From contig WRBJ01000001.1 of assembly GCA_009784615.1 (NCBI GenBank), positions 72,810 through 136,809 on the forward strand: 64,000 nt of DNA, given 5' to 3'. Positions 1-37,399 of the stretch are shown here, one piece after another (the first letter of the stretch is position 1; each line of letters opens with the position of its first letter). The position numbers and the translations under genes were made by a program. This DNA is from Defluviitaleaceae bacterium. Its GTDB lineage: Bacteria > Bacillota > Clostridia > Lachnospirales > WRAX01. The notes below the pieces were generated by a model. It saw only the letters and a list, made by a program, of their open reading frames with translations, did no database searches and was not told where the DNA came from.

Positions 1-819
1 GGTCTTGACCAATCTTACATCCATCAGTATTTTGCTTGGATAGGGCAGATGTTACAGGGCAATTTTGGCTACAACTTCCCATTTAGGGTGCCTGTTTTAG
101 AAGCGATAAGAACACCTATGTTAAACACGATTGTAATGAACATTTTTGTTTTAATTATCGTGTTTGCTATCACTATACCTATGGGTATTTATGCTGCTAT
201 AAAACGTGGCAAGCTGTTTGATAACGGTGCGTTATTCTTTACCACAATTGGTTTTAGTTTCCCTAACTTTTTATTTGGTCTTTTAATGATAATTATTTTT
301 AATGTATGGCTTGGCTGGCTTCCTACGGGCGGTATGCGCGACCCAATGGCACAAATTTGGCTTGAGGATGGCACTTGGACGCAATGGGATGCATTGTTAG
401 ACCGTGCGAAGTATATGATATTGCCTATTCTGACCCTTGTTTTGGTTGGTATGGCGGGTCTTATGCGTTTTGTGCGTTCGGCTATGATAGATGCCTTAAA
501 CCAAGACTATATACGTACGGCACGCTCTAAAGGTCTTGCCGAAAAAACAGTTATATATTCGCATGCATTTAGAAACGCACTTGTTCCAATCGTAACTGTA
601 ACAGCTGGTTGGTTTATTGGTATATTTGGCGGTTCTGTTTTAGTTGAGCGTGTATTTAGCTGGAACGGTATGGGCATAGTGATGATTGATGCACTTGGTC
701 AGCGTGATGTGGCTACGCTAAAGGCTATGACGGTTTTTTATTCATTAATATCTTTCGTCGGTCTTTTGGTAGTAGATATTGTGTATGTATTGGTTGACCC
801 ACGTATTAGGTTTGAATAA
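1..819 (+). CDS. ABC peptide-type permease, OppB/DppB-like (5' end outside window)
   Basis: Frame is open from base 1 (GLDQSYIHQYFAWIGQMLQGNFGY...). Multi-TM permease with the conserved YIRTARSKGL segment. Followed by OppC/D/F-like genes. Confidence 0.85.
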   Translation, partial: GLDQSYIHQYFAWIGQMLQGNFGYNFPFRVPVLEAIRTPMLNTIVMNIFVLIIVFAITIPMGIYAAIKRGKLFDNGALFFTTIGFSFPNFLFGLLMIIIFNVWLGWLPTGGMRDPMAQIWLEDGTWTQWDALLDRAKYMILPILTLVLVGMAGLMRFVRSAMIDALNQDYIRTARSKGLAEKTVIYSHAFRNALVPIVTVTAGWFIGIFGGSVLVERVFSWNGMGIVMIDALGQRDVATLKAMTVFYSLISFVGLLVVDIVYVLVDPRIRFE

Positions 820-873: not shown

Positions 874-3504
874 ATGAGCGAAAATAAGCCCAAAAGAGAG
901 TCTTTTGCGAGCGGTCTGTTTAAGTTTTTATTTACAGGAAGACGCGCTAAAGATGTTTCTATGTGGGAGGAAGAGCAAATTGAAAGTCCGGGTAAAACCG
1001 TGATGAAAGAGTTTTTTAGAAGAAAAATGACAATTGCGGGAATTATTGGTTTTGTTACCGTTTTTACATTGTCTATGGTATTGCCTTTCTTTTTCCCTGT
1101 TCACGATACTGACAGAGATTTGGCGCATTTAAGTATACGTCCTGACCTTACAATGGGTATGATGCGTTTGCCGCGTGAATTGCGTGGTAATGTAGAGATG
1201 ATAGCGCCAGGACCTGGTTTTAGCGTAGGCTTGAGCAAAGACGGCAATGTTTATGTTTGGGGGTCTATTGCACCTGAAACCAGAGATGTTTTTAATGTGC
1301 CTGAGTTTTCCGAGCCTATTGTACACGTAACTGCGGGGCGTTCGCACGTTGTTGCGGTTAGCGAGAACGGTCGTGTATATTCTTGGGGACATCAACACGC
1401 TTCTACAATGCACACTGTAGTGCCAAATGAGATACAAGGGCGCACAAGAGTGGTTGAAGCGGGATTAAGAACGGCTGTTGCTATTTTGGACGACGGTAGT
1501 ATTCAAGTATTTGGCGGTATTGATAATAATATGGCAAATATTGCGCCTTTCCCTGCTTTTGTAGGCTCTAGGGCAAACAATCCTTTTAGCCTTCCTGTTG
1601 GCGCAGTTATTGCGCAGGTTTTGGCATCTGATAATATGGCTGGTGTTTTGACTGAAGATGGCGAGTTGCATATAATGTCATCTAATGCTCAATTGCGAAA
1701 TGTGCCAGACGATGTGCAAGGGCGTATTGTTGATTTTGCATTTAATTCCAGATATGTTGCGGTTGTTTTGGATAATGGCTCTGTTTATGCTTGGGGGCAA
1801 TTGCCAGGCTTAGGCGAGGATGAAGAACGTATTGCTATCAACAGCGGTGCTGTTGGCATTGTTGACAACGATGATGATTTTGTTGTTGCTATGGCGGCAG
1901 GCGGCTTTACACGTTTTGACCTTACTGACAATCAGTTAAGCGCAGAGAATAATATACCTTCATCTTCATTAACCAGACATTCGCTTGAAGGCATTAGTGC
2001 TTCACAAATTGTTGTTAATACTAATAATTTTGGCATTTTGACTGAAGGCAGTGATGTGACTGGAGGCGGTAATGTTTATGTTGTTTCGCCAAGTGGACAC
2101 GCTGTTGGTAATGTTCCTGCCGATATTCAAGGCAGAATAATTGATTTTGCTTTAACCGACAGAAATGGTGCGGCTCTTTTAAATGACGGAACTGTTGTTG
2201 TGTGGGGCGAAGGTCCTTATCAGCAAGCTCCGGCGCATTTCCAAGGACGTGTTGTTTCTATTGACAGCGGCGTTACGCATTTTTCTGTTGTATTAGAAAC
2301 CGGAAACACACATACATTTACGGCTGACCCTTCTGCGGCTTCACATTTTTGGAGATTGCCTGTTGGTGTGTACGTTACTAAAGTAGAGATGAATTCTAAT
2401 ACAGCGGCTGTTTTAACTTCTGACGGCGAAATTTATGTTCTTTCACCTGTAGACCGTACAGTTAGAAATGTACCGCAAGAATTTCAAGGTAGATTTATTG
2501 ATTTTGCTTTAACGGATAGAAATGCCGCCGCAATTTTGGACGACAACACAGTTGTTGCTTGGGGCGACGATATGCCTGCACGCGTTGTTCCTGAAGCGAT
2601 TGGCGCACGTGCTATGGAAATAAACGGCGGCGAAGCACATTTTACCGTGCGCTTAGACGATAATTCAGTATATTCTTGGGGTGATAATGGTCATAGACAA
2701 TCAAATCACCCTAACAATAATAATATTGAAGAAATCTTCGTTGGATACCATCATAACTATGCCTTGACTTCAGACGGCGATGTTGAAACTTGGGGTTTAA
2801 GAGGTTTTCCGTTTGGTTCGGATGACTCTGGGCGTTCTATGTTTTCACGTGTTTGGCAGGCTGGGCGTTATTCTTTAACAATCGGTTTTGTGGCTATATT
2901 AATTGCTACCTTCATTGGCATTATACTTGGCTCACTTGCAGGTTATTTTGGAGGGTGGGTTGAAACGCTTATTATGCGTTTTGGTGAGATAGTTATGTCG
3001 CTGCCTTTCCTACCTATGGCGTTGATACTTAACTGGCGTTTGCAAGGTGAAGCCACAACAGAGGTGCAAAACCTTATGATACTGATGGTTGTACTTGGTC
3101 TTATATCTTGGCCAGGCATTATGCGTCTTGTTCGTGCACAGGTTATGCAAGCAAGAAATGCGGAATACGTTATTGGCGCACGTGCTTTGGGTGTAAAAGA
3201 AGGCAAGATTATATCTCGCCATATTATGCCAAACGTGCTATCGGTTATTATTGTACAATTTGCATTGGGTCTTGCTGGTTCTATGCTTACAGAAAGCACA
3301 CTGTCCTTCCTAGGCTTTGGCATTACACCGCCGACACCAACTTGGGGCAATATGCTTAATGCCGCACAGCACTCTATTGTATTGCGTGTTGAATGGTGGC
3401 GTTGGGTTGCTCCGGCGGCGGCACTTGTTACAGTTGTTATCAGTATTAATCTTATCGGCGACGGCTTGCGTGAAGCCTTTGACCCAAGAGCGAGAGGAAG
3501 GTAA
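874..3504 (+). CDS. OppC/DppC-like ABC permease with a large RCC1-like beta-propeller insertion in the first extracytoplasmic loop
   Basis: RBS GAGGGGAG upstream. TM1 lies near aa 52-74. About 560 aa follow with repeated G..H..A......G.VY.WG blades (YVWGS, YSWGH, YAWGQ, VVWGE, VAWGD, YSWGD, ETWGL). The C-terminal about 240 aa are a typical OppC permease core ending DGLREAFDPR. Confidence 0.8.
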   Translation: MSENKPKRESFASGLFKFLFTGRRAKDVSMWEEEQIESPGKTVMKEFFRRKMTIAGIIGFVTVFTLSMVLPFFFPVHDTDRDLAHLSIRPDLTMGMMRLPRELRGNVEMIAPGPGFSVGLSKDGNVYVWGSIAPETRDVFNVPEFSEPIVHVTAGRSHVVAVSENGRVYSWGHQHASTMHTVVPNEIQGRTRVVEAGLRTAVAILDDGSIQVFGGIDNNMANIAPFPAFVGSRANNPFSLPVGAVIAQVLASDNMAGVLTEDGELHIMSSNAQLRNVPDDVQGRIVDFAFNSRYVAVVLDNGSVYAWGQLPGLGEDEERIAINSGAVGIVDNDDDFVVAMAAGGFTRFDLTDNQLSAENNIPSSSLTRHSLEGISASQIVVNTNNFGILTEGSDVTGGGNVYVVSPSGHAVGNVPADIQGRIIDFALTDRNGAALLNDGTVVVWGEGPYQQAPAHFQGRVVSIDSGVTHFSVVLETGNTHTFTADPSAASHFWRLPVGVYVTKVEMNSNTAAVLTSDGEIYVLSPVDRTVRNVPQEFQGRFIDFALTDRNAAAILDDNTVVAWGDDMPARVVPEAIGARAMEINGGEAHFTVRLDDNSVYSWGDNGHRQSNHPNNNNIEEIFVGYHHNYALTSDGDVETWGLRGFPFGSDDSGRSMFSRVWQAGRYSLTIGFVAILIATFIGIILGSLAGYFGGWVETLIMRFGEIVMSLPFLPMALILNWRLQGEATTEVQNLMILMVVLGLISWPGIMRLVRAQVMQARNAEYVIGARALGVKEGKIISRHIMPNVLSVIIVQFALGLAGSMLTESTLSFLGFGITPPTPTWGNMLNAAQHSIVLRVEWWRWVAPAAALVTVVISINLIGDGLREAFDPRARGR

Positions 3505-3510: not shown

Positions 3511-4500
3511 ATGGCATTATTAGAGCTTAACAATGTTCATACATTCTTTACTACTAGACGTGGCATTATTAAGGCCGTAAACGGTGTATCTTATCACGTT
3601 GAAGCGGGTAAGACCCTCGGCATAGTGGGCGAATCTGGTAGTGGCAAGTCTGTTTCTGCAATGAGCGTTTTGCGTCTTTTGGACGAAAACGGTAAAGTTG
3701 TTGACGGTACGATTATGTTTAAAGGTAAAGATTTGTCAAAGCTATCTAAAAAGGAGATTAACAGAATACGCGGTAACGAGATTTCTGTTATCTTTCAAGA
3801 GCCTATGACAAGCCTTAACCCGATTTTTACTGTACGCAAGCAAATTGGTGAAGCGTTTAGATTGCACCAAGGTATGAGTAAGCAAGAAGCATATCTTGAA
3901 GCGGTTAAAATTTTGGCAGATGTTAAAATACCTGACCCAGAGATTGTAGCAAAAAAATATCCATTTATGCTATCTGGTGGTATGCGTCAGCGTGTTATGA
4001 TTGCGATGGCGTTAGCGTGTAAACCCGACTTGCTTATTGCTGATGAACCAACGACGGCACTTGATGTTACAATACAAGCACAGATTTTGCGCCTTATGAA
4101 TGAATTGAAAAAAGAAAAAGGCACAGCTATTATGTTTATTACGCACGATTTGGGCGTTATTAACGAAATGGCGGATGATGTAGCTGTAATGTACTGCGGG
4201 CAGGTTGTAGAACAAGCACCGGTGCGACAAATATTTGGCGAAAGTAAGTTTTCGCATCCATATACTGAAGCATTGCTTACATCTATACCACGTCTTGACA
4301 CGCCTGTTGGCACAAGACTTGACCCGATTGAAGGCTCTGTGCCTCATCCGCTTGATTTGCCTGTTGGTTGTAAATTTGCGCCACGTTGCAAATATAAAAC
4401 CGAACGTTGCGAAAAAGAGGAACCGGAACTTTTCCAAGTAACAGAAAACCAAAGGGTAAGATGTTTCTATCCGGAAGAGGGGGTGCGTGCAAATGGATAA
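3511..4500 (+). CDS. Peptide ABC transporter ATP-binding protein, OppD/DppD-like
   Basis: Walker A GESGSGKS, signature LSGGMRQR, Walker B LLIADEPTTALD, C-terminal oligopeptide-type Cys motif (CKFAPRC). Confidence 0.9.
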   Translation: MALLELNNVHTFFTTRRGIIKAVNGVSYHVEAGKTLGIVGESGSGKSVSAMSVLRLLDENGKVVDGTIMFKGKDLSKLSKKEINRIRGNEISVIFQEPMTSLNPIFTVRKQIGEAFRLHQGMSKQEAYLEAVKILADVKIPDPEIVAKKYPFMLSGGMRQRVMIAMALACKPDLLIADEPTTALDVTIQAQILRLMNELKKEKGTAIMFITHDLGVINEMADDVAVMYCGQVVEQAPVRQIFGESKFSHPYTEALLTSIPRLDTPVGTRLDPIEGSVPHPLDLPVGCKFAPRCKYKTERCEKEEPELFQVTENQRVRCFYPEEGVRANG

Positions 4501-6040
4501 AAAGCCGCTTATCAGCATAAAAGAACTTAAACAATGGTTTCCCGTTAGGGGTAAACGTGGTTTGTTTGTTAAAGCAAACGACGGTGTTACACTTGACATT
4601 TTTGAAGGCGAAACGGTTGGTATCGTAGGCGAATCTGGTTGCGGTAAGTCTACACTTGGTCGTGTGCTTTTACAGCTTTATAAGCAAACCGACGGGCAAA
4701 CTATTTATTATGGACAATCTCTTGAAGATGTTGCGCCGATTTATGTTCTTGATATTTATAAAAATCTTGAGAAAAAAGTCGCATTAACAAAAAAAGAGAT
4801 TGCCGATGCCGAACGTTTGGAAGCAGAGGTTGCTAAACTTGAAGCCGAAATTGGACAATCGCAAGATAAAGACAAGTTAAAACTGTTATATGCTAAAATG
4901 AACGAGCGTAACGAAGCCAGAAAAATAGCAAACACAGACTTTTTGTCGGTTGTGCGATTGATGGGCGGTTTTTATACCACAAAGGATTTTGCGGAGGTTT
5001 CACGTGTTCACGTAGAATATTACAACGCTTGCCTTGGGGTGCGCTCTGTTAATATGTCGCTTAAAAAATTACGTCTTGAAGTTGCAGAGCTTCAATATAA
5101 AGTCGATAAAGACTTGGGAGGTGACGCAACAAAACTTGATAACCTTAAAAAGAAACTTGAAGGTATTGAAAGCACCGAATTGCGCACAGCAGAGCGTGCA
5201 AGAGATGAAAAGCGTGACACAGTTAATGCTTTGCGTGCAAAATATGCCAATGACCCCGAGTTTCAAGAATTTGAAGAAATGCGAGATTATGGTATAGACC
5301 TTGCCGCCTTAAAAATTAACGAAATGCGTCATTTGCGCAAAGATTTGCAAATGATTTTTCAAGACCCGTATAGTTCGCTAAACCCACGCTTAACAGTTGG
5401 TCAAATTATAGCTGAAGGTCCGCAAACCCATCAGGATTTGGCGGCGAAAAATGAGCGCACACAGGAATATGTTACAACAATTATGGAAGATTGCGGTCTT
5501 GCACCTTATATGATTCACCGCTACCCGCATCAATTTTCGGGCGGTCAGCGTCAGCGTATAAGTATTGCACGTGCATTGTCTGTTAAGCCAAAATTTGTTG
5601 TTTGCGATGAGGCTGTTTCGGCACTTGACGTATCTATACAGTCGCAAATTATCAACCTTTTGCAAGATTTGCGCGAAAAAGACAATCTTACGTATATGTT
5701 TATTTCGCATGACCTTTCTGTTGTAAAATACATATCCGACCGTGTTGCGGTTATGTATTTGGGCGTTATTGTGGAACTTTGTAGCTCTGCAGAGCTATTT
5801 AGTAACCCATTGCATCCATATACGGAAGCTCTGCTTTCTGCTATACCAACAACAGATTTAGAAAAAGATACAGAAATGATTATACTCGAAGGCGACATTC
5901 CATCCCCTGTTAATCCTCCAAAGGGTTGTAAGTTTAATACTCGTTGTAGAGATTGTATGGACATTTGTTCGCAGGTAGCACCAGAATGGCGTGAACATAC
6001 ACCAGGTCATTTTGTAGCTTGCCATAAGTATAACGACTAA
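4487..6040 (+). CDS. Peptide ABC transporter ATP-binding protein, OppF/DppF-like, with about 210-aa coiled-coil insertion
   Basis: Walker A GESGCGKST. About 210 charged heptad-like residues lie before QMIFQDPYSSLNPR. Signature FSGGQRQR, Walker B FVVCDEAVSALD, C-terminal CKFNTRC. Overlaps the upstream gene by 14 nt. Confidence 0.85.
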   Translation: MQMDKKPLISIKELKQWFPVRGKRGLFVKANDGVTLDIFEGETVGIVGESGCGKSTLGRVLLQLYKQTDGQTIYYGQSLEDVAPIYVLDIYKNLEKKVALTKKEIADAERLEAEVAKLEAEIGQSQDKDKLKLLYAKMNERNEARKIANTDFLSVVRLMGGFYTTKDFAEVSRVHVEYYNACLGVRSVNMSLKKLRLEVAELQYKVDKDLGGDATKLDNLKKKLEGIESTELRTAERARDEKRDTVNALRAKYANDPEFQEFEEMRDYGIDLAALKINEMRHLRKDLQMIFQDPYSSLNPRLTVGQIIAEGPQTHQDLAAKNERTQEYVTTIMEDCGLAPYMIHRYPHQFSGGQRQRISIARALSVKPKFVVCDEAVSALDVSIQSQIINLLQDLREKDNLTYMFISHDLSVVKYISDRVAVMYLGVIVELCSSAELFSNPLHPYTEALLSAIPTTDLEKDTEMIILEGDIPSPVNPPKGCKFNTRCRDCMDICSQVAPEWREHTPGHFVACHKYND

Positions 6041-6077: not shown

Positions 6078-6296
6078 ATGTTTTTACGAAAAGACCAAAG
6101 AAGGCGACGTATGACAAGGGAAGAAGCTAACGCTATTTTGGAGCGTACAAAAACCGAAGAACCTTTGGAATTGGAAAAGGGCGATTTGTTTGCTATTCTT
6201 TTGGCGGCGGCAAAAACATTCGTTCCTGTTATATTAGTATTTTGCCTCTCTATGTTGTTATTATGGTGGCTTATATTTCACGTTTGGGCAAGCTAG
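6078..6296 (+). CDS. Small membrane protein, function unknown (start may be the ATG at 6111)
   Basis: 72-aa ORF with a basic N-terminus and one clear hydrophobic helix (FAILLAAAKTFVPVILVFCLSMLLLWWLIF). Coding status is not independently supported. Confidence 0.4.
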   Translation: MFLRKDQRRRRMTREEANAILERTKTEEPLELEKGDLFAILLAAAKTFVPVILVFCLSMLLLWWLIFHVWAS

Positions 6297-6369: not shown

Positions 6370-8175
6370 ATGAGAAATAGTAAGTGGGAGCAAGTTAAAG
6401 CAAATGTATCATTATTTGCAAAAAGAAACAAAAAAGCATTAAGAAGGACGTATTGGACATTAGCGGCATTGTTTTTGGTTGGCTTTGGCGGAATGTTAGC
6501 ATATGTACAATTTATGGGATATTTTGACCCCATTAGCACGCCAGCTATGATGAGGATGACCCCAGATGAAATGCGTGAAATGCGTGAAATGGAGCAAGTA
6601 TTGTGGGAATATTGGCGTGAGCAATCCCGTCAAGGCGACTTTGCTGAAATGATGTGGCTTTTGCACGAAAACTATCCATTTTTTGAGATGGGTTTGCGCA
6701 ATGGCGTAGATATTGTAGGTATTGGCATTGATGCTTTTGCAGAGCTAGAAGGGGTTGCCGCACATCTATCAGGTACAGGCGGCTTTCAAGAGTTTATCAA
6801 TAGCTATTTTATGAACCATATTGGTGGCTTGGGCGGTTTGCGTATTGCGGCTGCGGCATCACGTACTGCGCTTTGGTTAAGTGAGCCTTATTATATGGGT
6901 CATTCTGACTTCCGTTTTTATGACGATAGGTTTGACGCACAGACAAGTGAGCAAAACCATCGTATGTCTATGGTTACAGATGATGTGGCGTATTTGCAAA
7001 TTGAGGCATTTTTGTCAAAGGGCTATACTCCTATTAATAATCATCCGTATTGGAGATATGATTTTAACGAAGAACGGCAAGAATTGTTGCGTGCATTTAG
7101 AAACGTCAACAACGCAGAGCATTTAATAATTGACATTAGAGGCATAAACGAAGGTTTTAGTGAATATTTTTTGCCGCTATTAATAGAACCAAATATTTAT
7201 GCACCTATTATGCAAAATTTCTACGCTTTCCATACAGGTGGCAATATGGCGATGGAAGTTAGCGCAAGTTTTAGAGAATTTCACAGCCTTGGCAGAACAT
7301 ACAATACAAATAGCCTTTTAGCAGATATGCCGATGGCGAATGTGGCAGATTTTGAAAATCTTATCCACGGTTTTGAAATTGCGCTTGAAGCAAATCCGAC
7401 ACAAAATAGCCCTGCATTCGGCGGGAAAATTTGGCTGTTGACAGATTCGGCAAACTTCTCTGGGATAAATCAAATGTATTTAGCTATGGCAGAAGAAGCG
7501 GGTTTTGAAATTCTTTATGTCGAAGATAATAATGCGCCACAATGGCCAGTGCCTTTTGCCAGATTGCCGCAAAGCGGTTTATCGGTGCGCCACAATGTTT
7601 TTTATTTCACAAACAATGACGGCATAGCTTTTGAAGAACAACGCATTGCAGGACATTACAACCTACAGGCTGATGTCGATGATGCATTAAGCGTCGCGTT
7701 TATGCATATAACAGGTGCAGAAATGCCGCATTTTGAGATTGCTCAAGAACCAAACGCAGAAATAGATGATATAATATCAATTACAAATGGCATTGCATTT
7801 GGCGATTTAAGCATTACTTTTAGTAATGAAGTTAGCGTAATCACCAATGAATTGGGCAATACGCTGGTGATTTTTGATGATGTAGATGGCAATTCAACTC
7901 TAATACATCAGCTTACAGCAAGTGCGCCTATGCAGAATTTTTCGTGGATAGCGGTTGGTATGAATGAAAGTGGCGAACTTTACGAAGCTGAAGTGCTGTA
8001 TGCCCACGACGGCGAAGTATCTGTATTTATAGTTAATTGGATAGAGTGGGGCACAGTACCACACCGTGGGGTATCATTTGTCGATGAAAATGGCAATGTG
8101 CGACGTTTTTTCATAGCTATGAACAATGCATATCCTGATGAAGGCGATGGCATATTCTTGCTTCGTGAGTTTTAA
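6370..8175 (+). CDS. Membrane-anchored protein with S41 (tail-specific protease)-like core, otherwise uncharacterised
   Basis: RBS GGGAGG, N-terminal TM. The segment LIIDIRGINEGFSEYFLPLL resembles the S41 vIiDLRgNgGG strand. The later LLTDSANFSGINQ resembles the S41 Ser region. Family assignment is from memory of motifs only. Confidence 0.55.
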   Translation: MRNSKWEQVKANVSLFAKRNKKALRRTYWTLAALFLVGFGGMLAYVQFMGYFDPISTPAMMRMTPDEMREMREMEQVLWEYWREQSRQGDFAEMMWLLHENYPFFEMGLRNGVDIVGIGIDAFAELEGVAAHLSGTGGFQEFINSYFMNHIGGLGGLRIAAAASRTALWLSEPYYMGHSDFRFYDDRFDAQTSEQNHRMSMVTDDVAYLQIEAFLSKGYTPINNHPYWRYDFNEERQELLRAFRNVNNAEHLIIDIRGINEGFSEYFLPLLIEPNIYAPIMQNFYAFHTGGNMAMEVSASFREFHSLGRTYNTNSLLADMPMANVADFENLIHGFEIALEANPTQNSPAFGGKIWLLTDSANFSGINQMYLAMAEEAGFEILYVEDNNAPQWPVPFARLPQSGLSVRHNVFYFTNNDGIAFEEQRIAGHYNLQADVDDALSVAFMHITGAEMPHFEIAQEPNAEIDDIISITNGIAFGDLSITFSNEVSVITNELGNTLVIFDDVDGNSTLIHQLTASAPMQNFSWIAVGMNESGELYEAEVLYAHDGEVSVFIVNWIEWGTVPHRGVSFVDENGNVRRFFIAMNNAYPDEGDGIFLLREF

Positions 8176-9070: not shown

Positions 9071-9418
9071 GGGGGCGCACTGGTTTCGACGGGGATTTTA
9101 AATACAGAGATAGCCATCCGCAGCGTCAACTGCGTCATCAAGGCAAACCTAAAATTAACTGACAAAAATGAATTAGCTTTTGCGGCTTAATTAAAAAGCC
9201 GTTGCCCGCCTAGATAATCTCATCGGTTTAGGCCTGGCATCGACTAGATGAGGCACTTTCGCCACGACCGCTTCGCCGTGGCGAAAAGACCCTAGAAGCT
9301 ACCTGCGGTAATGCTTTGTCGGTTTTGCATACCAAAGGGAAATTTAAAAATCGTCTATGATGGAAGAAGTCTTTGTGGGCAGGTTCTCGGACACGGGTTC
9401 AATTCCCGTCGCCTCCAT
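9071..9418 (+). ncRNA. ssrA: tmRNA (SsrA)
   Basis: 5' GGGGGCGCACTGGTTTCGACGGGG and 3' GGACACGGGTTCAATTCCCGTCGCCTCCA form a tRNA-Ala-like acceptor stem with a G3:U pair and a T-arm. The internal tag frame GCA AAC ... GCT TAA (9143-9190) would encode ANLKLTDKNELAFAA. CCA is not encoded. Confidence 0.85.
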
Positions 9419-9424
9419 AAGGTT

Positions 9425-14589: not shown

Positions 14590-14617
14590 GTTATTATGAA
14601 ATTTTTGAAAGATGAGA

Positions 14618-14646
14618 TTGATTGTTAGTCGGTTTTGTGGTATAAT
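14618..14646 (+). promoter_or_regulatory. Sigma-A promoter for the uvrB operon (TTGATT-17-TGgTATAAT)
   Basis: TTGATT at 14618-14623, 17-nt spacer with extended TG, TATAAT at 14641-14646. Confidence 0.5.
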
Positions 14647-14683
14647 GAAGAATGGACTATTCGACAGTAAAAGGGGTGTTTTG

Positions 14684-16663
14684 GTGGATAAATTTGAGAT
14701 AGTATCAGAATTTGTGCCTACGGGCGACCAACCGCAGGCGATTGACGAGCTTGTGCAGGCTTTTAAGGGCGGCGAAAGGTTTGGTACATTGCTTGGGGTT
14801 ACAGGTAGCGGCAAGACCTTTACCGTGGCTAATATAATACAGCGTTTGCAGAAACCGACCATTGTAATGGCGCATAATAAGACGTTGGCGGCGCAGTTAT
14901 ATAACGAATTTAAAGAATTTTTCCCCAACAATGCCGTGGAATATTTTGTAAGTTACTATGACTATTATCAGCCAGAGGCTTATGTGCCTTCATCTGACAC
15001 CTATATAGAAAAAGATAGCGCAATAAATGATGAAATTGATAAACTGCGACACAGTGCCACAGCGGCTATTGCAGAACGTAATGACGTTATAATCATTGCG
15101 TCGGTATCGTGCATATATGGTCTTGGTTCGCCCATTGATTATAAAAATTTGGTGGTTTCTTTGCGACCTGGTATGACCAAAGATAGGGACGAGCTTTTGC
15201 GACGTTTGGTTGATATACAGTATAACCGCAATGATATGAACTTCCAGCGTGGTACATTTAGGGTACGTGGCGATGTTGTAGAAATCTTCCCTGCATACAG
15301 CGATACTACGGCTTTTAGGGTGGAATTTTTTGGCGACGAAATAGAGCGCATTGTAGAAATCGAGCCGCTGACAGGCGAAATTTTTGGGGCTAGGACGCAT
15401 ATATCCATTTTCCCCGCAAGCCACTATGTTACAACAAAAGAGAATATGGAAAGGGCTATTGCGGATATTGAGGAGGAGCTTGCGGCGCAGATAACATATT
15501 TAAAAGGGCAGGACAAGCTGATAGAGGCGCAACGCATTGCGCAACGCACACGTTATGATATTGAAATGATGCGTGAAATGGGCTTTTGCAACGGCATAGA
15601 AAACTACAGCCGCCACCTAACAAACGGTAAGGCGGGCGACGCACCGCATACTTTGCTTGACTATTTTCCTGATGATTTTTTGATTGTGGTGGATGAAAGC
15701 CACGTTACCCTGCCGCAGTTTAGAGGGATGTATTTAGGCGATAGAAGCCGCAAAGAAACGTTGGTGGACTTTGGCTTTAGGCTTCCTTCGGCTCTTGACA
15801 ACCGCCCGCTTCGTTTTGAGGAATTTGAGAAAAAGATGGGACAAGCGTTGTTTGTATCTGCTACGCCTGCTGTGTACGAAAAAGATAACTCGTCATTGAC
15901 GGTGGAGCAAATTATACGCCCGACAGGCTTGCTTGACCCCGAAATCTTCATACGCCCTATAAATGGGCAGATTGATGACCTTATCACCGAGATTAAAAAG
16001 GTTACAGAGCAAGGTTTTAAGGTGCTTGTAACCACGCTAACCAAAAAAATGGCGGAAGACTTGACAGATTATTTGAAAAATAGTGGTGTTGGTGTGCGGT
16101 ATTTGCATAGCGATATAAAAACGCTGGAAAGGCTTGAAATTATACGTGATTTGCGTATGGATGTTTTTGATGTACTGGTTGGCATTAACTTGCTAAGAGA
16201 GGGGCTGGACATACCCGAAGTAGCCCTTGTTGCTATACTAGATGCCGACAAAGAAGGCTTCCTTCGTTCCGAAACCAGCCTTGTGCAGACCATAGGGCGT
16301 GCGGCAAGAAACAGCGAAGGACGTGTAATTATGTATGCCGATAATGTTACACGCAGTATGAATTATGCCATAAGTGAAACCAACCGCCGCCGTGGCATAC
16401 AAATGGCATATAACGAGGCAAACGGCATAACCCCGCAAACCATAACCAAAAAAGTACACGACATCATCCAAGCCACAATGAGTGTTGAAGAAAAGAAAAA
16501 GTCCACAAAACTAGCCAAAGACCCAGAAAGTATGAACCGCGAGGAGCTTATAACATACATCAAACAGCTTGAAAAAGAGATGAAGCAAGCGGCGCAGGAT
16601 TTGAACTTTGAAAGAGCGGCTAATTTAAGGGATACAATATTTAAGACAAAAAAATTGTTGTAG
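14684..16663 (+). CDS. uvrB: Excinuclease ABC subunit B
   Basis: GTG at 14684 after [24 protein letters not shown], Walker [13 protein letters not shown] box, C-terminal UVR motif (FERAANLRD). The upstream Met at 14612 lies 5' of the predicted -10, so it is unlikely to be the start. Confidence 0.95.
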
Positions 16664-16676
16664 GGGAGGTTTGTCG

Positions 16677-18773
16677 ATGGGCAAAATCAAATTTATCGAC
16701 CTTTTTGCAGGGATTGGCGGTATACGTCTAGGTTTTGAAAGGGTTTTTGGTGATATGGGCAAAACGGTTTTTGTTAGTGAATGGGATTTGAATGCACAAC
16801 AGACATATAGAGCGAATTTTGGTAAAGAAATTGAAATTGCAGGCGATGTTACGTTGATTGACGAAAAAGATGTTCCTGCCTTTGATATTTGTCTAGCAGG
16901 TTTTCCTTGTCAGGCATTTAGTCTGGCGGGAAGTCGTAAAGGTTTCAAAGACAGCTTCAAAGGAAAAACAAGGGGTACATTGTTTTTTGATGTGGCAAGA
17001 ATTTGTTCCTTTCATAAGCCAAAAGTAATTTTTTGTGAAAATGTTAAAGGGTTGGCTATACACGACAAAGGCAGGACTTACAAAATTATTAAAAGCACGT
17101 TGGAAGAATTGGGATATACAGTGTATGAAAAAATACTCAACAGTAGGGATTTCGGTGTTCCGCAAAATCGTGAACGTATTTACATCGTAGCTTTTAGAAA
17201 TGATATTGACACAAGAACATTTAGTTTTCCTGAGCCAATAAATTCCAATATGCGAATTAAAAATATAATTGAAGAAACCCCTGTTTCGGCTAAGTATTAT
17301 TTGAGCGATGTCTATATCGAAACTTTACGAAGACACAAAGCTAGGCATAAGGAAAAAGGGAATGGTTTTGGATATGAAATTCGTGACTGGAATGATGTAG
17401 CAGGTACTATAGTATGTGGTGGTATGGGTCGAGAACGCAATTTGATAATTGACAAACGACAAACAAACCTAAATCCCATAACAAATATTAAGGGCACAAT
17501 TAACAACGAAGGCATACGAAAGATGACGCCTAGAGAATGGGCAAGATTGCAGGGTTATTCTGATGATTTTATTTTGACACTTGCAGATACACATTTGTAT
17601 AAACAATTAGGCAATTCTGTAACAGTGCCTGTTATACAAGCCATTGCAGAAAAAATAAAGCACACACTCAATAACCAAAGGGAGGCAAAGAAAATGGCTG
17701 TTAGAGGCAACAAAGGTGAATGGTCGGAGTTATATGTTTTGCTACGTTTGCTAGCTGAAGGAAATCTTTTTGCGGCAGACAAAAACCTTAATCGCATTAA
17801 AGATATGTTTTTTCCGATTATTAATATAATACGAGAAGAAGTAAAAGGCAAAATTTATGAGTATAGACCAAATCGAGATGATGCTCAAATTGAAATCTAT
17901 TTTAATGATGAGTTTGTATTAAAACTTCCTGCAAAGATTTTTGGCGATGAAGCAAGTAAATTATTTGATAAAATTGTTGCTGGTGGCTCAGGAAGCGGAG
18001 CTTTTGAAATTCCAGAAACGGAGAGTTTTATTAAGAATATTTATATCAATAAACCAAAGGCTGGCACTTCAACTAAATCTGATATGAATATCCAATTGCA
18101 CGATGTTAATACGGGGTTTGAAAATATTGTGGGTTTTAGTATTAAGAGCCAGATGGGTAGCCCTTCTACGCTTCTTAATGCAGGAAAATCAACAAACTTT
18201 ATTTATAAAATAAAAGGGATAGACCATAATAGAATTGGAGAAATAAATGCTATAGATACCCAGACTAAGTTAAAAGACCGCATAAACAGTATAGTTGATT
18301 TGGGAGGAGAATTTATTTTTGAAAATACAGATAACGCCAATTTTAGTAACAATTTATTTATGGTAGATAGCCAGATGCCAATAATTATTTCAGAAATGCT
18401 CGTTGGATTTTACAAAGATGGTGTTAAGAATTGCAAAGAACTGACTGAATATGTTTCAAAAATAAATCCTATTTTACGAGATGAACGTTTTTATCTACAT
18501 AAAATAAAAGAGCTTCTTTGCGCAATAGCTTTAGGTATGAAAACGACATCCATTTGGGATGGGACAGATGAAGCAACGGGTGGCTATATTGTTGTAAAAA
18601 ATGATGGTGATGTGCTTGCTTATCACATCTATAATCGTGATGCTTTCAAAGATTATTTGTTAGATAATACCAGATTGGATAAGCCAAGTAGCACAAGACA
18701 CGGATATGGAGTGCTTTATGAACAGAATGGAGAAATTTATATAAAATTGAACTTACAAATACGATTTAAATAG
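16677..18773 (+). CDS. Fused DNA (cytosine-5) methyltransferase / HpaII-like restriction endonuclease, single polypeptide
   Basis: ATG at 16677 after GGGGAGG. The N-half has C5-MTase motifs in order: [27 protein letters not shown]. From about codon 345, [20 protein letters not shown] starts a roughly 355-aa region that I recall as HpaII-family REase. There is no stop between the halves. Confidence 0.75.
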
Positions 18774-18787
18774 TGAGGACAAAAGAT

Positions 18788-21625
18788 ATGTCGAAGAACA
18801 AAATTGTGATTAAGGGTGCGAGGGAGAATAACCTCAAAAATATTGATTTAGAGATACCGCGGGATGCTATGGTTGTGTTTACGGGGGTGTCGGGTAGCGG
18901 CAAAAGCTCGCTTGCTTTTGAAACTCTTTATGCAGAGGGGCAAAGGCGTTATATGGAGAGCCTGTCGTCATATGCTCGCCAATTTTTGGGGCAGATGGAA
19001 AAGCCTGATGTGGATAGCATTGAAGGGTTGTCGCCTGCTATTTCTATCGACCAAAAATCTACCAACCAAAACCCACGCTCTACGGTGGGGACGGTTACGG
19101 AGATTTATGATTATTTAAGGTTGTTATATGCTAGGGTTGGCGTGCCGCATTGTCCAGAGTGTGGCAAGGAGATTGTGCGGCAGACGGTTGACCAAATTGT
19201 TGACCAAATTTTGGCATTGCCTGAAGGTAGCCGCATACAGCTACTTGCGCCTGTTGTGCGGGATAGAAAGGGCGAACACCAAAAGGTGCTTGACGAAGCA
19301 AAGAAAGAAGGCTATGCCCGTGTACGTGTAAACGGCACGGTGATGGAGCTTGCGGATGATATAAAGCTGGCGAAGAACAAGCGGCATAATATAGATATTG
19401 TGGTGGATAGGATTGTGGTGAAGGCGGGCATTGAGGCACGTTTGAGCCAGAGCGTGGAAACCGTTATGGGTTTGACGGATGGTATACTTGTTGTGGATAT
19501 TGATGGTGGCGAGGACTTGATGTTTTCGCAGAATTTTGCTTGTCCTGAACACGGCGTGTCGCTAAACGAGATAGAGCCTAGGATGTTTTCGTTTAACAAC
19601 CCATCTGGGGCTTGTAGCGAATGTGCTGGGCTTGGGTTTAAAATGGAATTTGACCCAGAGCTTATTGTGCCAAACGCCGATTTGTCGCTTGCGCAGGGGG
19701 CTATTACTGTACCTGGTTATAATAGCGTTGGCAAGACAGATTCTTGGGGTGGGTTTTTCTTTACAGCTTTGGCGAAACGTTATGATTTTAGCCTTAACAC
19801 GCCTTTTAAAAAGTTGCCTATGCAAATTAGAAATCTTATTATGTATGGTAATGACGGCGAGAATTTTCCTGTTGAATTTTTAAATCAAAGAGGCGAAAAA
19901 AGGGTTTATCAAAGCCATTGGGAAGGTATTGTACCGGGTGTTAGCCGCCGTTATAAAGAAACCAACAGCGAATGGAGCAGGCAGAATTATGAGGGTTTTA
20001 TAACAAATATAGAATGTAATATTTGCGATGGCAAACGTCTAAAGCCAGAGATTTTGGCGGTTACTGTTGGCGGGGTTAATATTGCAGATGTTACTGTTAT
20101 GCCCGTTGGGGCATTAGCAAAGTTTTTTAAAGAGCTTGCGCTTGGTGCAACACAGGCTGTTATTGCCGAGCGTATTTTAAAAGAGATTAAGGCAAGAGCG
20201 GGTTTTTTGGTTGACGTTGGGTTGGATTATTTGACGCTGGCGCGCTCTGCGGGGACATTGTCGGGTGGCGAGGCACAGCGCATACGCCTTGCAACACAAA
20301 TAGGTTCTGGGCTTGTTGGGGTTGTTTATATTTTGGACGAGCCATCCATTGGGCTACATCAACGTGATAATGATAAGTTGCTTAAAACCCTTCACCATCT
20401 GCGGGATTTGGGCAATACGTTGATAGTGGTAGAACACGACGAAGACACAATGCGTGAAGCTGACCATATTGTGGATATTGGGCCCGGTGCCGGTGTTAAT
20501 GGCGGCGAGATTGTTTATAATGGTGATATTGCGGGGATTTTGAAAGATGAAGATAGCATTACGGGCGCATATATGAGCGGTCGTATGGCTATACCCTTGC
20601 CAAAAAACCGCAGGCAAATGTGCGATAAGCGTTTGGTGGTAAAAGGTGCGGCGGAGAATAATTTGAAGAATTTGGATGTTGAAATTCCGCTTGGTCTATT
20701 TATTGCTATTACGGGTGTTTCTGGCAGTGGCAAGTCTTCGCTTATCAATGAGATTTTGTATAAACGGCTTGCTAGAGATTTAAACCGTAGCAAAGTAAAG
20801 CCTGGCAAGCACGAAGATATTACAGGGCAGGAGCATTTGGATAAAATTATAAACATCGACCAAAGCCCGATTGGGCGCACGCCACGCTCTAATCCTGCAA
20901 CATATACGGGTTTGTTTGATTTGGTGCGGGATTTGTTTGCGGCAACGCCAGAGGCAAAGGTGAGGGGCTACCAAAAAGGACGTTTTAGCTTTAATGTAAA
21001 AGGCGGGCGTTGCGAGGCTTGCTCTGGTGATGGTATTATTAAGATAGAAATGCACTTTTTGCCTGATATTTTTGTGCCTTGCGAGGTTTGTGGCGGCAAG
21101 CGTTATAACCGTGAAACGCTTGAGGTTAAATATAAGGGTGCGACAATTGCGGATGTGCTTAATATGACTGTGGAAGAAGCATTAGCTTTTTTTGAGAATT
21201 TGCCACGTTTGCGAGATAAGGTGCAGACGCTGTATGATGTAGGGCTGTCTTATGTTAAGCTGGGGCAAAGCTCCACGACATTATCTGGTGGCGAGGCACA
21301 GCGTGTTAAACTAGCGACGGAGCTTTCTAAACGTAGCACAGGGCGTACAATTTATGTGTTAGACGAGCCGACAACGGGCTTGCATATGGCGGACGTTCAT
21401 AAGCTGGTGGATATTTTACAGAAGCTGACGGATGGCGGTAATAGCGTTGTTGTTATCGAGCATAATTTGGATGTTATCAAAACTGCGGATTATATTATTG
21501 ATTTGGGACCAGAAGGCGGACACGGCGGCGGCACTATTGTTGTGCAGGGTACGCCGGAGGAAGTGGCGAAGTGCAAAAAGTCATACACAGGGCAGTATTT
21601 GAAGAAGGTTTTGAAGAAGAAGTAG
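18788..21625 (+). CDS. uvrA: Excinuclease ABC subunit A
   Basis: [21 protein letters not shown], two ABC modules (GVSGSGKSS twice, LSGGEAQR twice), zinc-finger Cys pairs. Confidence 0.95.
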
Positions 21626-34842: not shown

Positions 34843-34927
34843 GCCCGAATGGCGGAACCGGTAGACGCACAGGACTTAAAATCCTGCGACCTCAACAGTC
34901 GTGCCAGTTCGAGTCTGGCTTCGGGCA
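34843..34927 (+). tRNA. tRNA-Leu (anticodon UAA), class II with long variable arm
   Basis: Acceptor GCCCGAA/TTCGGGC, anticodon loop CTTAAAA, variable arm GACCTCAACAGTCGT, T-arm GCCAG-TTCGAGT-CTGGC. Confidence 0.9.
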
Positions 34928-34936
34928 TTGTGAAAC
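34875..34936 (+). repeat. attL: 62-bp direct repeat (3' part of tRNA-Leu plus 9 nt)
   Basis: Identical to 59926-59987 (CTTAAAATCCTGCGACC...GGGCATTGTGAAAC). Confidence 0.9.
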
Positions 34937-35052
34937 CCCTGTAAATCAACATTTACAGGGGTTTGTTATTTACTGCGGTAAAAAGTCCTGCGGGTATCAC
35001 TGCGGTAATTATGGGGTAATAAAATATGCCGTAACAAAAATTACCGCATTAA

Positions 35053-36162: not shown

Positions 36163-36166
36163 TTTA

Positions 36167-36817
36167 TCACCTCTTTATTTCTTTATCTTGAATAGGCTCT
36201 GTATGCGCACAATCTGGGCTTCTCGGACAACCTAGATATGGTGTGCGAGTAGATTTATTGAATTTCTTTGTGAGAACGTGATTGCATTGCGGGCAATAAC
36301 CCATATGTTCACTCATTTTGTGATATGCAACATCTGCAATAATATCCACATCCAACAAGGCGAATAAGCTAAATAACTTGCTTCTATCAATCAATTCAAT
36401 TTTTGGCTGTGCAGACGCCGCCGCCATTTTTGCATTTGGAGTAAAAAACGAGGTAGTGATAACACACCCTTGCAATTTTGGTTTATCCATCAACGAAATT
36501 GCACCAATGAAACTTCTTATGCGGTCTTCGTCCACAAGCTCACTATATTCTAATCTCCACGCTTTGGCTTGTATTGCTGTTGAAACATCATCTTTTGTAA
36601 TTATCAAATCCACACCTCTGTCGCCAAGACCAGGTTGCAATCTTGATTTTGGTATAACGCTATATCCAAGATATGTAAACAACTTTTCAAGCAATGCCTC
36701 AAACTCTGCGCCGTTCATATCGTCCATTCTTCGCAATTGTTGTGAGAGATATTGCAATTCTAGCCCATCCATAACGGTCTTTTTGCTTGGTAATATCGTC
36801 TTCTTGCGTTTGAACAT
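36167..36817 (-). CDS. Mrr-cat-type restriction endonuclease-like protein with C-terminal topoisomerase-type zinc ribbon
   Basis: FEALLEKLFTYLGY...GDRGVDLII...AIQAKAW (D...QxK nuclease core). C-terminal CPQC...LGCPRSPDCAHTE. Confidence 0.65.
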   Translation of the reverse strand: MFKRKKTILPSKKTVMDGLELQYLSQQLRRMDDMNGAEFEALLEKLFTYLGYSVIPKSRLQPGLGDRGVDLIITKDDVSTAIQAKAWRLEYSELVDEDRIRSFIGAISLMDKPKLQGCVITTSFFTPNAKMAAASAQPKIELIDRSKLFSLFALLDVDIIADVAYHKMSEHMGYCPQCNHVLTKKFNKSTRTPYLGCPRSPDCAHTEPIQDKEIKR

Positions 36818-36844
36818 ATTATTTTCTCCTTTGTAATTTTGTGA

Positions 36845-37258: not shown

Positions 37259-37336
37259 CGCCCCTTTACTCGCATTATACCACTAAAAGTTGTTGAAAAA
37301 AATATTTACGCTTTTTTTTCGTAAAAATGCTTGACA

Positions 37337-37385
37337 ACAACCCAAGGTTGTGATATTGTGATGTAAATACACAACCTAAGGTTGT
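37337..37385. promoter_or_regulatory. Two 15-bp palindromic operator candidates (ACAACC-NAA-GGTTGT) overlapping a TTGACA promoter
   Basis: ACAACCCAAGGTTGT at 37337-37351 and ACAACCTAAGGTTGT at 37371-37385. TTGACA at 37331-37336 precedes the first one. Confidence 0.5.
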
Positions 37386-37399
37386 AGTGAGGTGATACG

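What the first reader, a model, noticed from the sequence alone, without database searches (positions are those of the whole stretch)
874..3504. OppC-type ABC permease carrying a roughly 560-aa RCC1-like beta-propeller in its first external loop
Seen:
- The protein is 876 aa, where a typical OppC/DppC is about 300 aa.
- One TM helix lies at about aa 52-74.
- A long region follows with at least seven blade-like repeats ending in hydrophobic-WG (YVWGS, YSWGH, YAWGQ, VVWGE, VAWGD, YSWGD, ETWGL) and a recurring NVP.D.QGRI.DFALTDRN.AA module.
- The ordinary OppC membrane core then follows.
- The DNA repeats are diverged, so this is not a recent duplication artefact.

Known:
- RCC1/ATS1-type repeats form seven-bladed propellers.
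- In OppC the loop after TM1 faces outside, where it contacts the substrate-binding protein.

Inference: the propeller is displayed on the cell surface as part of the translocator. It may act as a built-in receptor or docking platform that replaces or supplements an OppA-type binding protein. No binding-protein gene is visible in this window, though one could lie upstream.
Basis: partly seen in the sequence, partly recalled or inferred. Interest (0 to 1): 0.65.

Follow-up and report, generated by a model that had tools for sequence, protein, structure and literature searches.

The report
Peptide-importer permease carrying an external beta-propeller
The membrane subunit OppC of a peptide-uptake ABC transporter in a Clostridia bacterium carries a large BLIP-II/RCC1-like beta-propeller domain on the outside of the cell; this is a real, conserved and so far undescribed transporter variant, and it works alongside an ordinary binding protein rather than replacing it.

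Summary
ORF 874..3504 encodes an 876-aa OppC-type permease with about 570 aa of RCC1_2 repeats (E 1e-39) inserted between TM1 and the six-helix core.

The insert faces outward. Three TM helices separate it from the cytoplasmic EAA loop, and solved OppC/DppC structures place this loop in the periplasm.

It is not an assembly fusion:
- three assemblies carry the identical protein;
- a 64%-identical syntenic orthologue exists;
- at least 150 protein clusters in Clostridia share the architecture.

- The family standard is seven BLIP-II-like blades of about 41 aa each. This protein has 13, because a three-blade unit was triplicated. Only it and its orthologue show this.
- A 725-aa OppA-type lipoprotein gene lies two genes upstream, just outside the window, and OppB keeps its scoop region. 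"Replaces OppA" is therefore not supported.

Eight of eight loci share one cassette: large SBP, OppB, OppC-propeller, OppD, OppF and an unannotated ~70-aa membrane protein, often next to an M3 peptidase.

My best reading is an accessory external docking platform, analogous to the MalF P2 loop. That function is inferred, not shown. No paper describing the architecture was found. Whether the 13 blades form one ring or two is unresolved.

The parts
1..819 (+). oppB permease gene, 5' end cut by the window edge. It is 334 aa on contig L002. The longest in-window ORF is 49..819.
   Evidence: BPD_transp_1 E 2e-38. Best NCBIfam match is Opp4B. The full-length copy aligns 1-333 to E. coli DppB 8z1v_A, including the scoop region.
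874..3504 (+). oppC permease gene with the inserted propeller ectodomain (876 aa).
874..1095 (+). Cytoplasmic N-terminus (aa 1-51, 12 K/R, with FFRRK immediately before the helix) and TM1 (aa 52-74).
   Evidence: Hydropathy and charge count; AF2 helix 51-73; weak OppC_N hit at aa 38-84.
1168..2796 (+). Extracytoplasmic ectodomain: 13 BLIP-II/RCC1-like blades (aa 99-641), each of about 38-54 aa with three main strands.
   Evidence: RCC1_2 E 1e-39. Blade alignment and score matrix. 13 strand triplets in two AF2 models. PDB sequence hits to BLIP-II, RCC1, HERC2 and UVR8. Foldseek top hits BLIP-II and UVR8.
1516..1929 (+). Three-blade unit U1 (blades 4-6, aa 215-352).
   Evidence: Unit alignments. 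48% identity to the orthologous unit in P0002.
1930..2322 (+). Three-blade unit U2 (blades 7-9, aa 353-483).
   Evidence: This is the region of lowest model confidence.
2323..2682 (+). Three-blade unit U3 (blades 10-12, aa 484-603). It is the copy closest to blades 4-6 of the standard seven-blade members.
   Evidence: Highest alignment score to P0004, P0006 and P0017. 60% identity to P0002. pLDDT above 90.
2797..2874 (+). Junction WGLRGFPFGSDDSGRSMFSR (aa 642-667), which links the last blade to TM2. G644, G648, D650, G653 and R659 are invariant across the family.
   Evidence: Column counts over 90 family members.
2875..3504 (+). OppC membrane core, TM2-TM6, with the cytoplasmic EAA coupling loop at aa 762-787 (nt 3157-3234).
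   Evidence: BPD_transp_1. phmmer: aa 644-874 align to E. coli OppC 8z21_B residues 81-302. Foldseek TMt 0.72, rmsd 2.0 A.
3511..4500 (+). oppD ATPase (329 aa).
   Evidence: ABC_tran plus oligo_HPY. Best NCBIfam match is OppD.
4487..6040 (+). oppF ATPase (517 aa), with a charged insert of about 180 aa between the Walker A region and the rest of the nucleotide-binding domain.
   Evidence: ABC_tran is split into two stretches, plus oligo_HPY. Best NCBIfam match is OppF in two stretches. The long form is seen in five of eight family loci.
6078..6296 (+). Conserved small single-pass membrane protein (72 aa), a candidate sixth component of the cassette.
   Evidence: Present directly after oppF in 8 of 8 loci. 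Alignment A4. 725 protein clusters found, no Pfam family.

Best explanation
This is the OppC subunit of a complete OppABCDF-type (peptide/nickel family) type I ABC importer from a monoderm Clostridia bacterium (Defluviitaleaceae MAG).

Anatomy (shown):
- A secreted-type BLIP-II/RCC1-like beta-propeller module has been inserted into the TM1-TM2 loop, so it sits on the outer face of the membrane beside the place where the binding protein docks.
- The family standard is seven blades.
- In this lineage a three-blade unit was triplicated, giving 13 blades.

Function (inferred): the propeller is an accessory protein-binding platform that recruits, holds or orients the operon's own unusually large lipoprotein OppA at the translocator. 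This would be functionally analogous to the MalF P2 loop of the maltose importer. Substrate hand-over still runs through the normal OppB scoop and the OppB/OppC gate.
For: Architecture:
- Domain order OppC_N, RCC1_2 repeats, BPD_transp_1.
- The core aligns to solved OppC/DppC only from residue 81 onward. The modelled core superposes on E. coli OppC with TMt 0.72 and rmsd 2.0 A.

Outside location:
- A K/R-rich N-terminus precedes TM1, and TM2-TM4 lie between the insert and the cytoplasmic EAA loop (direct reading of the sequence).
- The TM1-TM2 region of DppC is periplasmic in cryo-EM structures (PMC12136057).

Reality and selection:
- The identical protein appears in three assemblies.
- A syntenic 879-aa orthologue at 64% identity keeps all three units in order.
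- At least 150 clusters carry both RCC1_2 and BPD_transp_1. Their ectodomains are 317-368 aa in 88 of the 90 members aligned.

An SBP-dependent importer:
- The SBP_bac_5 lipoprotein has lipobox LAAC.
- SBPs from distant family loci are homologous over their full length.
- The OppB scoop region is kept.
- The same cassette is found in 8 of 8 loci, with an M3 oligoendopeptidase gene adjacent in five of them.

Protein-binder precedent:
- The nearest solved relative is secreted BLIP-II, which binds its protein target through propeller loops (PMC10817188).
- MalF P2 is a folded periplasmic insertion that binds MalE (PMC6906923).
Against: - No direct evidence links the propeller to the SBP. No multimer model, interface or co-variation analysis could be run.
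- SBP size does not track blade number. Seven-blade loci have SBPs of 628-745 aa, and the two 13-blade loci have 722 and 725 aa.
- The extra blades evolve faster (47-48% identity between orthologues, against 75% for blades 1-3 and 82% for the core). That fits relaxed or diversifying selection better than a fixed interface with a conserved partner.
- In the solved Dpp complex, the SBP cleft is engaged by DppB rather than DppC.
Confidence: 0.4

Rival explanations
1. The propeller is itself a ligand receptor. It captures the transported substrate or a precursor at the cell surface (long peptides, glycopeptides, muropeptides or a protein) and feeds it to the SBP or translocator. This would make it a built-in primary receptor that supplements OppA.
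For: - The domain faces outward next to the translocation gate.
- Propellers commonly bind ligands on their top face.
- There are sub-threshold Tectonin (lectin propeller) hits in the P0050 clade (25.6 bits against a cutoff of 30).
- The added blades evolve quickly, as expected for a changing ligand surface.
- Peptidase genes lie next to the operon.
Against: - A dedicated SBP is always present (8 of 8 loci).
- No pocket or conserved ligand-binding residues were identified. The invariant positions are mostly structural Gly, Trp and Pro.
- No propeller is known to deliver substrate to a type I importer.
Confidence: 0.2
2. The propeller binds some other extracellular partner rather than the SBP or the substrate. 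Candidates are an exoprotease or peptidase (coupling degradation to uptake), the cell wall or S-layer (as a spacer or anchor), or a foreign protein that it inhibits in the way BLIP-II does.
For: - BLIP-II, the closest solved relative, is a picomolar protein inhibitor.
- A membrane-anchored 601-aa protein with a faint S41-peptidase match follows the operon in this lineage.
- The best hits to the ectodomain are giant multi-RCC1 proteins of 1,200-7,000 aa whose function was not examined.
Against: - The 601-aa neighbour is lineage-specific and absent from six of eight loci.
- No partner gene other than the SBP and the small membrane protein is conserved in the cassette.
Confidence: 0.2
3. The propeller is largely structural baggage: a tolerated insertion in a permissive loop, without a specific binding function. 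On this view the 13-blade expansion is neutral repeat amplification.
For: - Propeller blades amplify readily (PMC9218822).
- The added units are the least conserved part of the protein.
- AF2 confidence is lowest in those units.
Against: - The seven-blade insert is kept intact in at least 150 clusters that are only 30-65% identical to one another, with invariant positions in most blades.
- The 13-blade form is kept in frame and in unit order in two species at 64% identity.
Confidence: 0.1
4. The long ORF is an assembly or annotation artefact that fuses a propeller gene to oppC.
For: None was found. The only prior grounds are the unusual length and the metagenomic origin.
Against: - The identical 876-aa product is found on three contigs from different assemblies.
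- The propeller lies between TM1 and TM2 of a single permease, not at an end.
- The family is large and shares the same architecture.
- There is no composition break across the gene.
Confidence: 0.01

Closest known systems
OppC/DppC permeases of OppABCDF and DppABCDF importers (solved: E. coli 8z21 and 8z1v; M. tuberculosis 8j5q and 8wd9)
   Same: - Six-TM BPD_transp_1 core, EAA loop and OppC_N-type TM1.
- Operon with OppB, OppD and OppF (including the C-terminal oligo_HPY Cys-rich tails) and an SBP_bac_5 protein.
- The core superposes at rmsd 2.0 A.
   Different: - The TM1-TM2 loop is about 570 aa here (about 320-370 aa in the wider family), against a short loop in the solved 287-302-residue OppC/DppC chains, where it ends by about residue 80.
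- The protein scores below every NCBIfam equivalog cutoff (best is Opp4C, 288.8 against 350).
- The cassette also contains a ~70-aa membrane protein and, in most loci, an OppF with an insert of about 180 aa.
BLIP-II (beta-lactamase inhibitory protein II, Streptomyces exfoliatus; 1jtd, 3qhy, 3qi0) and the RCC1/BLIP-II propeller lineage
   Same: - Repeats of about 40 aa with three strands per blade and WG-type signatures.
- A bacterial protein located outside the cytoplasm.
- Best PDB hit for the ectodomain by both sequence and fold (PMC10817188).
   Different: - BLIP-II is a free, secreted seven-blade protein. Here the propeller is a loop insertion in a membrane permease and has 13 blades.
- Foldseek TM-scores are only about 0.4, so the overall geometry differs or is unresolved.
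- No beta-lactamase context is present.
MalF P2 loop of the E. coli maltose importer MalFGK2-E
   Same: A folded extracytoplasmic domain inserted in a permease loop of a type I ABC importer that still uses a separate SBP. P2 binds MalE and stays bound through the cycle (PMC6906923). This is a functional analogy only.
   Different: - P2 is an Ig-like domain of about 185 aa between TM3 and TM4 of MalF.
- Here the domain is a 7- or 13-blade propeller of about 320-570 aa between TM1 and TM2 of OppC.
- The two are not homologous, and SBP binding is untested here.
ABC importers with fused substrate-binding domains (GlnPQ and OpuA types; Bdellovibrio MalE-MalF fusion)
   Same: An extracytoplasmic domain is covalently attached to the permease (Bdellovibrio case: PMC6906923; GlnPQ and OpuA from my own knowledge).
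   Different: In those systems the fused domain is a periplasmic-binding-protein fold that replaces the free SBP. Here the domain is a propeller and a free SBP gene is retained.
ACR4/CRINKLY4 receptor-kinase ectodomain (7a0j)
   Same: An RCC1-like seven-blade propeller displayed on the outer face of the membrane as part of a membrane protein. It appears among the Foldseek hits.
   Different: It is a eukaryotic single-pass receptor kinase, not a transporter. The resemblance is at fold level only (TMt 0.45).

Membership tests
OppC/DppC-type permease (PepT-family type I ABC importer) | BPD_transp_1 domain above the Pfam gathering score | tested here: met
   118.1 bits against a cutoff of 26.4, aa 682-874.
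OppC/DppC-type permease (PepT-family type I ABC importer) | OppC_N N-terminal TM domain | tested here: inconclusive
   18.5 bits against a cutoff of 23.9 in this protein. Family members pass clearly, for example P0050 at 44.9 bits and P0004 at 33.6 bits.
OppC/DppC-type permease (PepT-family type I ABC importer) | Six TM helices with a cytoplasmic EAA coupling loop between TM4 and TM5 | tested here: met
   Six hydropathy peaks. EAA-type motif at aa 762-787, read directly from the sequence. AF2 helices. Foldseek match to 8z21_B with TMt 0.72.
OppC/DppC-type permease (PepT-family type I ABC importer) | Operon with OppB, two oligo_HPY ATPases and an SBP_bac_5 binding protein | tested here: met
OppC/DppC-type permease (PepT-family type I ABC importer) | Equivalog-level match to a named OppC, DppC, NikC, GsiD or similar (NCBIfam cutoff) | tested here: not met
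   The best match is Opp4C at 288.8 bits against a cutoff of 350, and all others are lower. Family-level membership holds, but substrate specificity cannot be assigned.
RCC1/BLIP-II-like beta-propeller | Multiple RCC1-type repeats above the Pfam gathering score | tested here: met
   RCC1_2 at 133.8 bits against a cutoff of 22. phmmer hits to BLIP-II, RCC1, HERC2 and UVR8.
RCC1/BLIP-II-like beta-propeller | Canonical single seven-blade ring | tested here: not met
   There are 13 blades. The whole-domain model WD40_RLD scores 116.9 bits against a cutoff of 150. Foldseek TM-scores to seven-blade propellers are at most about 0.4. Standard family members have seven repeats by sequence, but their fold was not modelled.
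RCC1/BLIP-II-like beta-propeller | Blades predicted as antiparallel sheets of about 40-50 aa | tested here: met
   13 strand triplets in two AF2 models, with mean pLDDT 82.5 and 80.4.
RCC1/BLIP-II-like beta-propeller | Closed ring geometry (one ring or two) | not testable with these tools
   Neither model coordinates nor PAE were available. Only pLDDT, DSSP and Foldseek summaries could be read.
MalF-P2-type SBP-docking domain (functional class) | Folded extracytoplasmic insertion in a type I importer permease that also has a free SBP | tested here: met
MalF-P2-type SBP-docking domain (functional class) | Direct binding to the cognate SBP | not testable with these tools
   This needs a multimer model or a binding experiment.
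MalF-P2-type SBP-docking domain (functional class) | Ig-like fold between TM3 and TM4 (homology to MalF P2) | tested here: not met
   The domain is a propeller fold located between TM1 and TM2. The relationship is an analogy only.
SBD-fused ABC importer (GlnPQ/OpuA type) | The fused external domain has a periplasmic-binding-protein fold and substitutes for a free SBP | tested here: not met
   The fused domain is an RCC1-like propeller, and a free SBP gene is present in 8 of 8 loci.

The most novel reading that the evidence does not exclude
The propeller-bearing OppC, the oversized OppA, the conserved ~70-aa membrane protein and the OppF with a coiled-coil-like insert may together define a distinct, uncharacterised subclass of Opp importers in Clostridia. 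In that subclass the permease itself would carry a surface receptor or gate that captures large substrates or controls SBP access. In this lineage the receptor has been enlarged to 13 blades. That would mean either a propeller-within-propeller (7+6) arrangement or a ring larger than the range of 4-12 blades quoted for beta-propellers in PMC3797127.
Probability: 0.2. Interest if true: 0.8.

Novelty: new variant of a known kind. Interest (0 to 1): 0.55.

Why it matters
Type I ABC importers are thought to obtain specificity and substrate delivery from the soluble or lipid-anchored binding protein. The only well-studied permease-borne accessory domain is MalF P2. Here a whole family in gut and digester Clostridia carries a protein-binding propeller on OppC, and that implies an extra extracellular step in peptide uptake that nobody has examined. 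The step could be SBP retention, substrate pre-capture, or coupling to another surface protein.

The family also gives a natural series for testing how propeller blade number changes function inside a constrained loop insertion: seven blades against 13, with the extra six produced by triplication of a unit.

The co-inherited small membrane protein and the OppF insert are further unstudied parts of the same cassette.

The claim is limited. The anatomy is solid and the function is inferred.

Tried and rejected
1. Self-BLASTP of the protein printed no repeat pairs. I replaced it with a manual blade register and local alignments.

3. My DNA pattern for the blade-13/TM2 junction contained one N too many before the final Arg codon.
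   - It returned L008, a Bacillota MAG with ORFs of 666, 324, 629 and 337 aa in the cassette order. I did not annotate these further.
   - It also returned L009 (Vicinamibacterales), which I did not examine and which is probably a chance match.
   - A species-level taxonomic map was therefore not obtained. Taxonomy rests on the source names: Defluviitaleaceae, Oscillospiraceae, Clostridia, Ca. Limihabitans and Ca. Caccousia.

4. The exhaustive representative search with the ectodomain was dominated by giant multi-RCC1 proteins whose many repeats add up in score. It could not be used to size the OppC-propeller family.

5. Foldseek on the full-length and ectodomain-only models did not settle whether the 13 blades form one ring or two. 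TM-scores were at most about 0.4 to seven-blade propellers and about 0.16 to tandem propellers.

6. Rejected as explanations: assembly fusion, recent duplication artefact, cytoplasmic location, and replacement of the SBP. The evidence is given in the report.

7. Four paper searches combining RCC1 with OppC, ABC-permease or bacterial beta-propeller/BLIP-II terms found no description of this architecture.
Full report
**1. The observation**

ORF 874..3504 (+) is a continuous 876-codon frame.
- Pfam finds a weak OppC_N match at aa 38-84.
- It finds very strong RCC1_2 repeats (133.8 bits, E 9.8e-40), partial matches to the RCC1-like-domain model WD40_RLD, and a BPD_transp_1 core at aa 682-874.
- NCBIfam places the core in the OppC/DppC/NikC group. 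The best match is Opp4C, but it is below every equivalog cutoff.
- Base composition shows no break across the gene.

**2. Position and topology**

- Solved OppC/DppC chains align only to aa 642-874, which corresponds to E. coli OppC residue 81 onward. The insertion therefore lies between TM1 and TM2.
- Hydropathy gives TM1 at aa 52-70, preceded by a K/R-rich segment ending in FFRRK. Five more helices follow at aa 668-862.
- The EAA-type coupling loop (aa 762-787) must contact the ATPase in the cytoplasm. It is separated from the insert by three helices, so the insert is on the opposite, outer side.
- The E. coli DppBCDF cryo-EM paper describes six TMs per permease and calls the TM1-TM2 region periplasmic (PMC12136057).
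- The AF2 core superposes on E. coli OppC 8z21_B with TMt 0.72 and rmsd 2.0 A.
- The refutation test "the insert is cytoplasmic" is not met.

**3. Not an artefact**

- The identical 876-aa product is encoded on three contigs from different assemblies.
- An 879-aa orthologue at 64% identity (P0002) sits in a syntenic operon on two further contigs.
- A word-seeded search returned 151 clusters at 90% identity. All 120 clusters listed carry both RCC1_2 and BPD_transp_1. The few with source names are called only "ABC transporter permease subunit", from Defluviitaleaceae, Oscillospiraceae, Clostridia and Ca. Limihabitans MAGs.

**4. What the insert really is**

In 88 of the 90 aligned family members, the segment between TM1 and TM2 is 317-368 aa. 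That equals seven repeats of about 41 aa, as the register in P0004 shows.

This protein and P0002 have 593 and 596 aa in that segment.
- P0004 matches the query twice: query 10-310 to P0004 13-300, and query 438-876 to P0004 166-612.
- A blade-by-blade alignment gives 13 repeats.
- Blades 4/7/10, 5/8/11 and, more weakly, 6/9/12 are each other's best matches. The order is therefore 1-2-3-(4-5-6)-(7-8-9)-(10-11-12)-13.
- At DNA level the three copies of the best-kept segment are 66-74% identical, spaced 411 and 357 nt apart. This is an old triplication, not a recent artefact.
- Each unit maps to the same-position unit in P0002, so the triplication predates the split of the two species.
- Unit 3 is closest to the standard members.
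- Between the two orthologues, identity is 75% for blades 1-3, 48% and 47% for units 1 and 2, 60% for unit 3, 53% for blade 13 and 82% for the membrane core.

**5. Structure prediction**

- The full-length AF2 model has mean pLDDT 82.5 and pTM 0.68. The ectodomain-only model has pLDDT 80.4 and pTM 0.62.
- Both show 13 consecutive groups of three strands.
- Confidence is above 90 for blades 1-3 and 10-13, and lower for blades 4-9. Part of this difference may reflect alignment depth.
- The best sequence and fold matches for the ectodomain are BLIP-II, then UVR8, RCC1 and HERC2.
[quoted passage not shown] It binds its protein target through loops (PMC10817188).
- TM-scores to seven-blade propellers are only about 0.4, and to tandem propellers about 0.16. 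Coordinates and PAE were not available to me.
- I therefore cannot say whether the 13 blades form two rings (for example a 7+6 insertion arrangement) or something else. A review abstract gives 4-12 blades as the range for propellers (PMC3797127).

**6. Context**

On the source contig the operon runs as follows:
- SBP_bac_5 protein (725 aa)
- OppB
- OppC-propeller
- OppD
- OppF (515-517 aa)
- a 72-aa ORF

A 601-aa protein and a DUF2225 protein follow these genes.

Further points:
- The SBP has a lipoprotein signal (MRKLIMALLLVALVVVLAAC). It is a divergent OppA (best PDB hit 9p48 OppA).
- It is homologous over its full length to the SBP of a distant seven-blade locus (30% identity).
- OppB aligns end to end with E. 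coli DppB, including the segment that forms the scoop motif.
- The same order (SBP of 628-745 aa, OppB, OppC-propeller, OppD, OppF, small ORF of 62-72 aa) is found in all eight loci examined. Two of these were reached by starting from the small protein.
- An M3 oligoendopeptidase gene lies next to five of the eight loci, and an M29 aminopeptidase gene next to one. This fits peptide uptake.

The propeller therefore does not replace the binding protein.

**7. Mechanism**

Shown:
- an outward-facing BLIP-II-like propeller fused into OppC;
- a complete SBP-dependent importer;
- conservation of both across a broad clade.

Inferred: the propeller is an accessory binding platform at the SBP docking site, and its most likely partner is the cognate large lipoprotein OppA. 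This would be analogous to the Ig-like MalF P2 loop, which binds MalE and stays bound through the transport cycle (PMC6906923).

Points against this reading:
- SBP size does not follow blade number.
- The added blades are the fastest-evolving part of the protein.
- In the Dpp complex it is DppB that enters the SBP cleft.

Rival readings remain open and are scored in the report: direct capture of substrate or a precursor, binding of another surface protein or the cell wall, and a tolerated insertion with no specific function.

**8. Comparison and novelty**

The protein is a family-level member of the OppC/DppC permeases and of the RCC1/BLIP-II repeat lineage. It fails the equivalog cutoffs for any named OppC, and it fails the canonical seven-blade test.

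It works like, but is not homologous to, MalF P2. It is not an SBD-fused importer.

No paper describing a propeller in OppC or any ABC importer permease was found. Databases call these proteins "ABC transporter permease subunit". I rate it a new variant of a known kind. The family is undescribed, and the 13-blade form is unique to two sequences among those seen.

**9. Limits**

- A typing error in my junction pattern wasted the only genome-contig scan, so there is no species-level distribution.
- The representative search was swamped by giant multi-RCC1 proteins.
- No multimer modelling or coordinate inspection was possible.

Noticed in passing
window 6078-6296 (+); also L006 13212-13427, L004 11885-12091, L010 10478-10696, L011 10760-10963, L012 10523-10711, L013 9001-9207, L014 9001-9207: An unannotated small protein of 62-72 aa lies directly after oppF in all eight propeller-OppC loci. 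It has a basic N-terminus, an E(K)GD motif and one C-terminal TM helix. The family has 725 clusters and no Pfam match. It may be a sixth subunit.
   Followed up: partly
window 4487-6040 (+), insert at about nt 4754-5296: OppF is 517 aa. A highly charged, coiled-coil-like insert of about 180 aa splits the ABC_tran domain after the Walker A region. Long OppF (509-543 aa) occurs in five of eight family loci, and the normal 341-358 aa form in the other three (L004, L013, L014).
   Followed up: partly
L001 6500-8677 (upstream of the window on the source contig): The operon's OppA-type lipoprotein is 725 aa, and 628-745 aa across family loci. The OppA and family-5 SBP chains it matched in the PDB are 517-571 aa. 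Only part of it matches the SBP_bac_5 model (aa 317-508).
   Followed up: partly
window 6370-8175 (+): A 601-aa protein with an N-terminal hydrophobic segment and a faint Peptidase_S41 match (E 0.0095) follows the operon. It is present only in this lineage (a 487-aa protein occupies this position in P0002's locus) and absent from the other six loci.
   Followed up: no
window 16671-18773 (+): A single 700-aa ORF fuses a C-5 cytosine DNA methylase domain (aa 6-331) to an HpaII-type restriction endonuclease domain (aa 347-699). It sits between uvrB (14612-16663) and uvrA (18773-21625).
   Followed up: no
window 34843-53944: A tRNA gene at 34843-34927 is followed by genes typical of conjugative elements: a SpoVG/DUF3991/Toprim protein (37984-39921), a T4SS coupling protein (42855-44717), a TraG P-loop ATPase (46485-49088) and a 997-aa M23 peptidase (50951-53944). 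This is probably an integrative conjugative element.
   Followed up: no
window 9071-9420 (+): A full-length tmRNA gene (151.6 bits) lies just downstream of the DUF2225 gene.
   Followed up: no
P0163-P0311: The strongest matches to the ectodomain in the 1.8-billion-protein library are giant proteins of about 1,200-7,000 aa, each with 7-32 matched RCC1-like stretches. Their origin and function were not examined.
   Followed up: no
P0110 (955 aa), P0114 (801 aa), P0101 (714 aa): Some family members have a normal seven-blade ectodomain but carry 100-346 extra residues N-terminal to OppC_N, with no Pfam match. This could be a cytoplasmic extension or a miscalled start codon.
   Followed up: no
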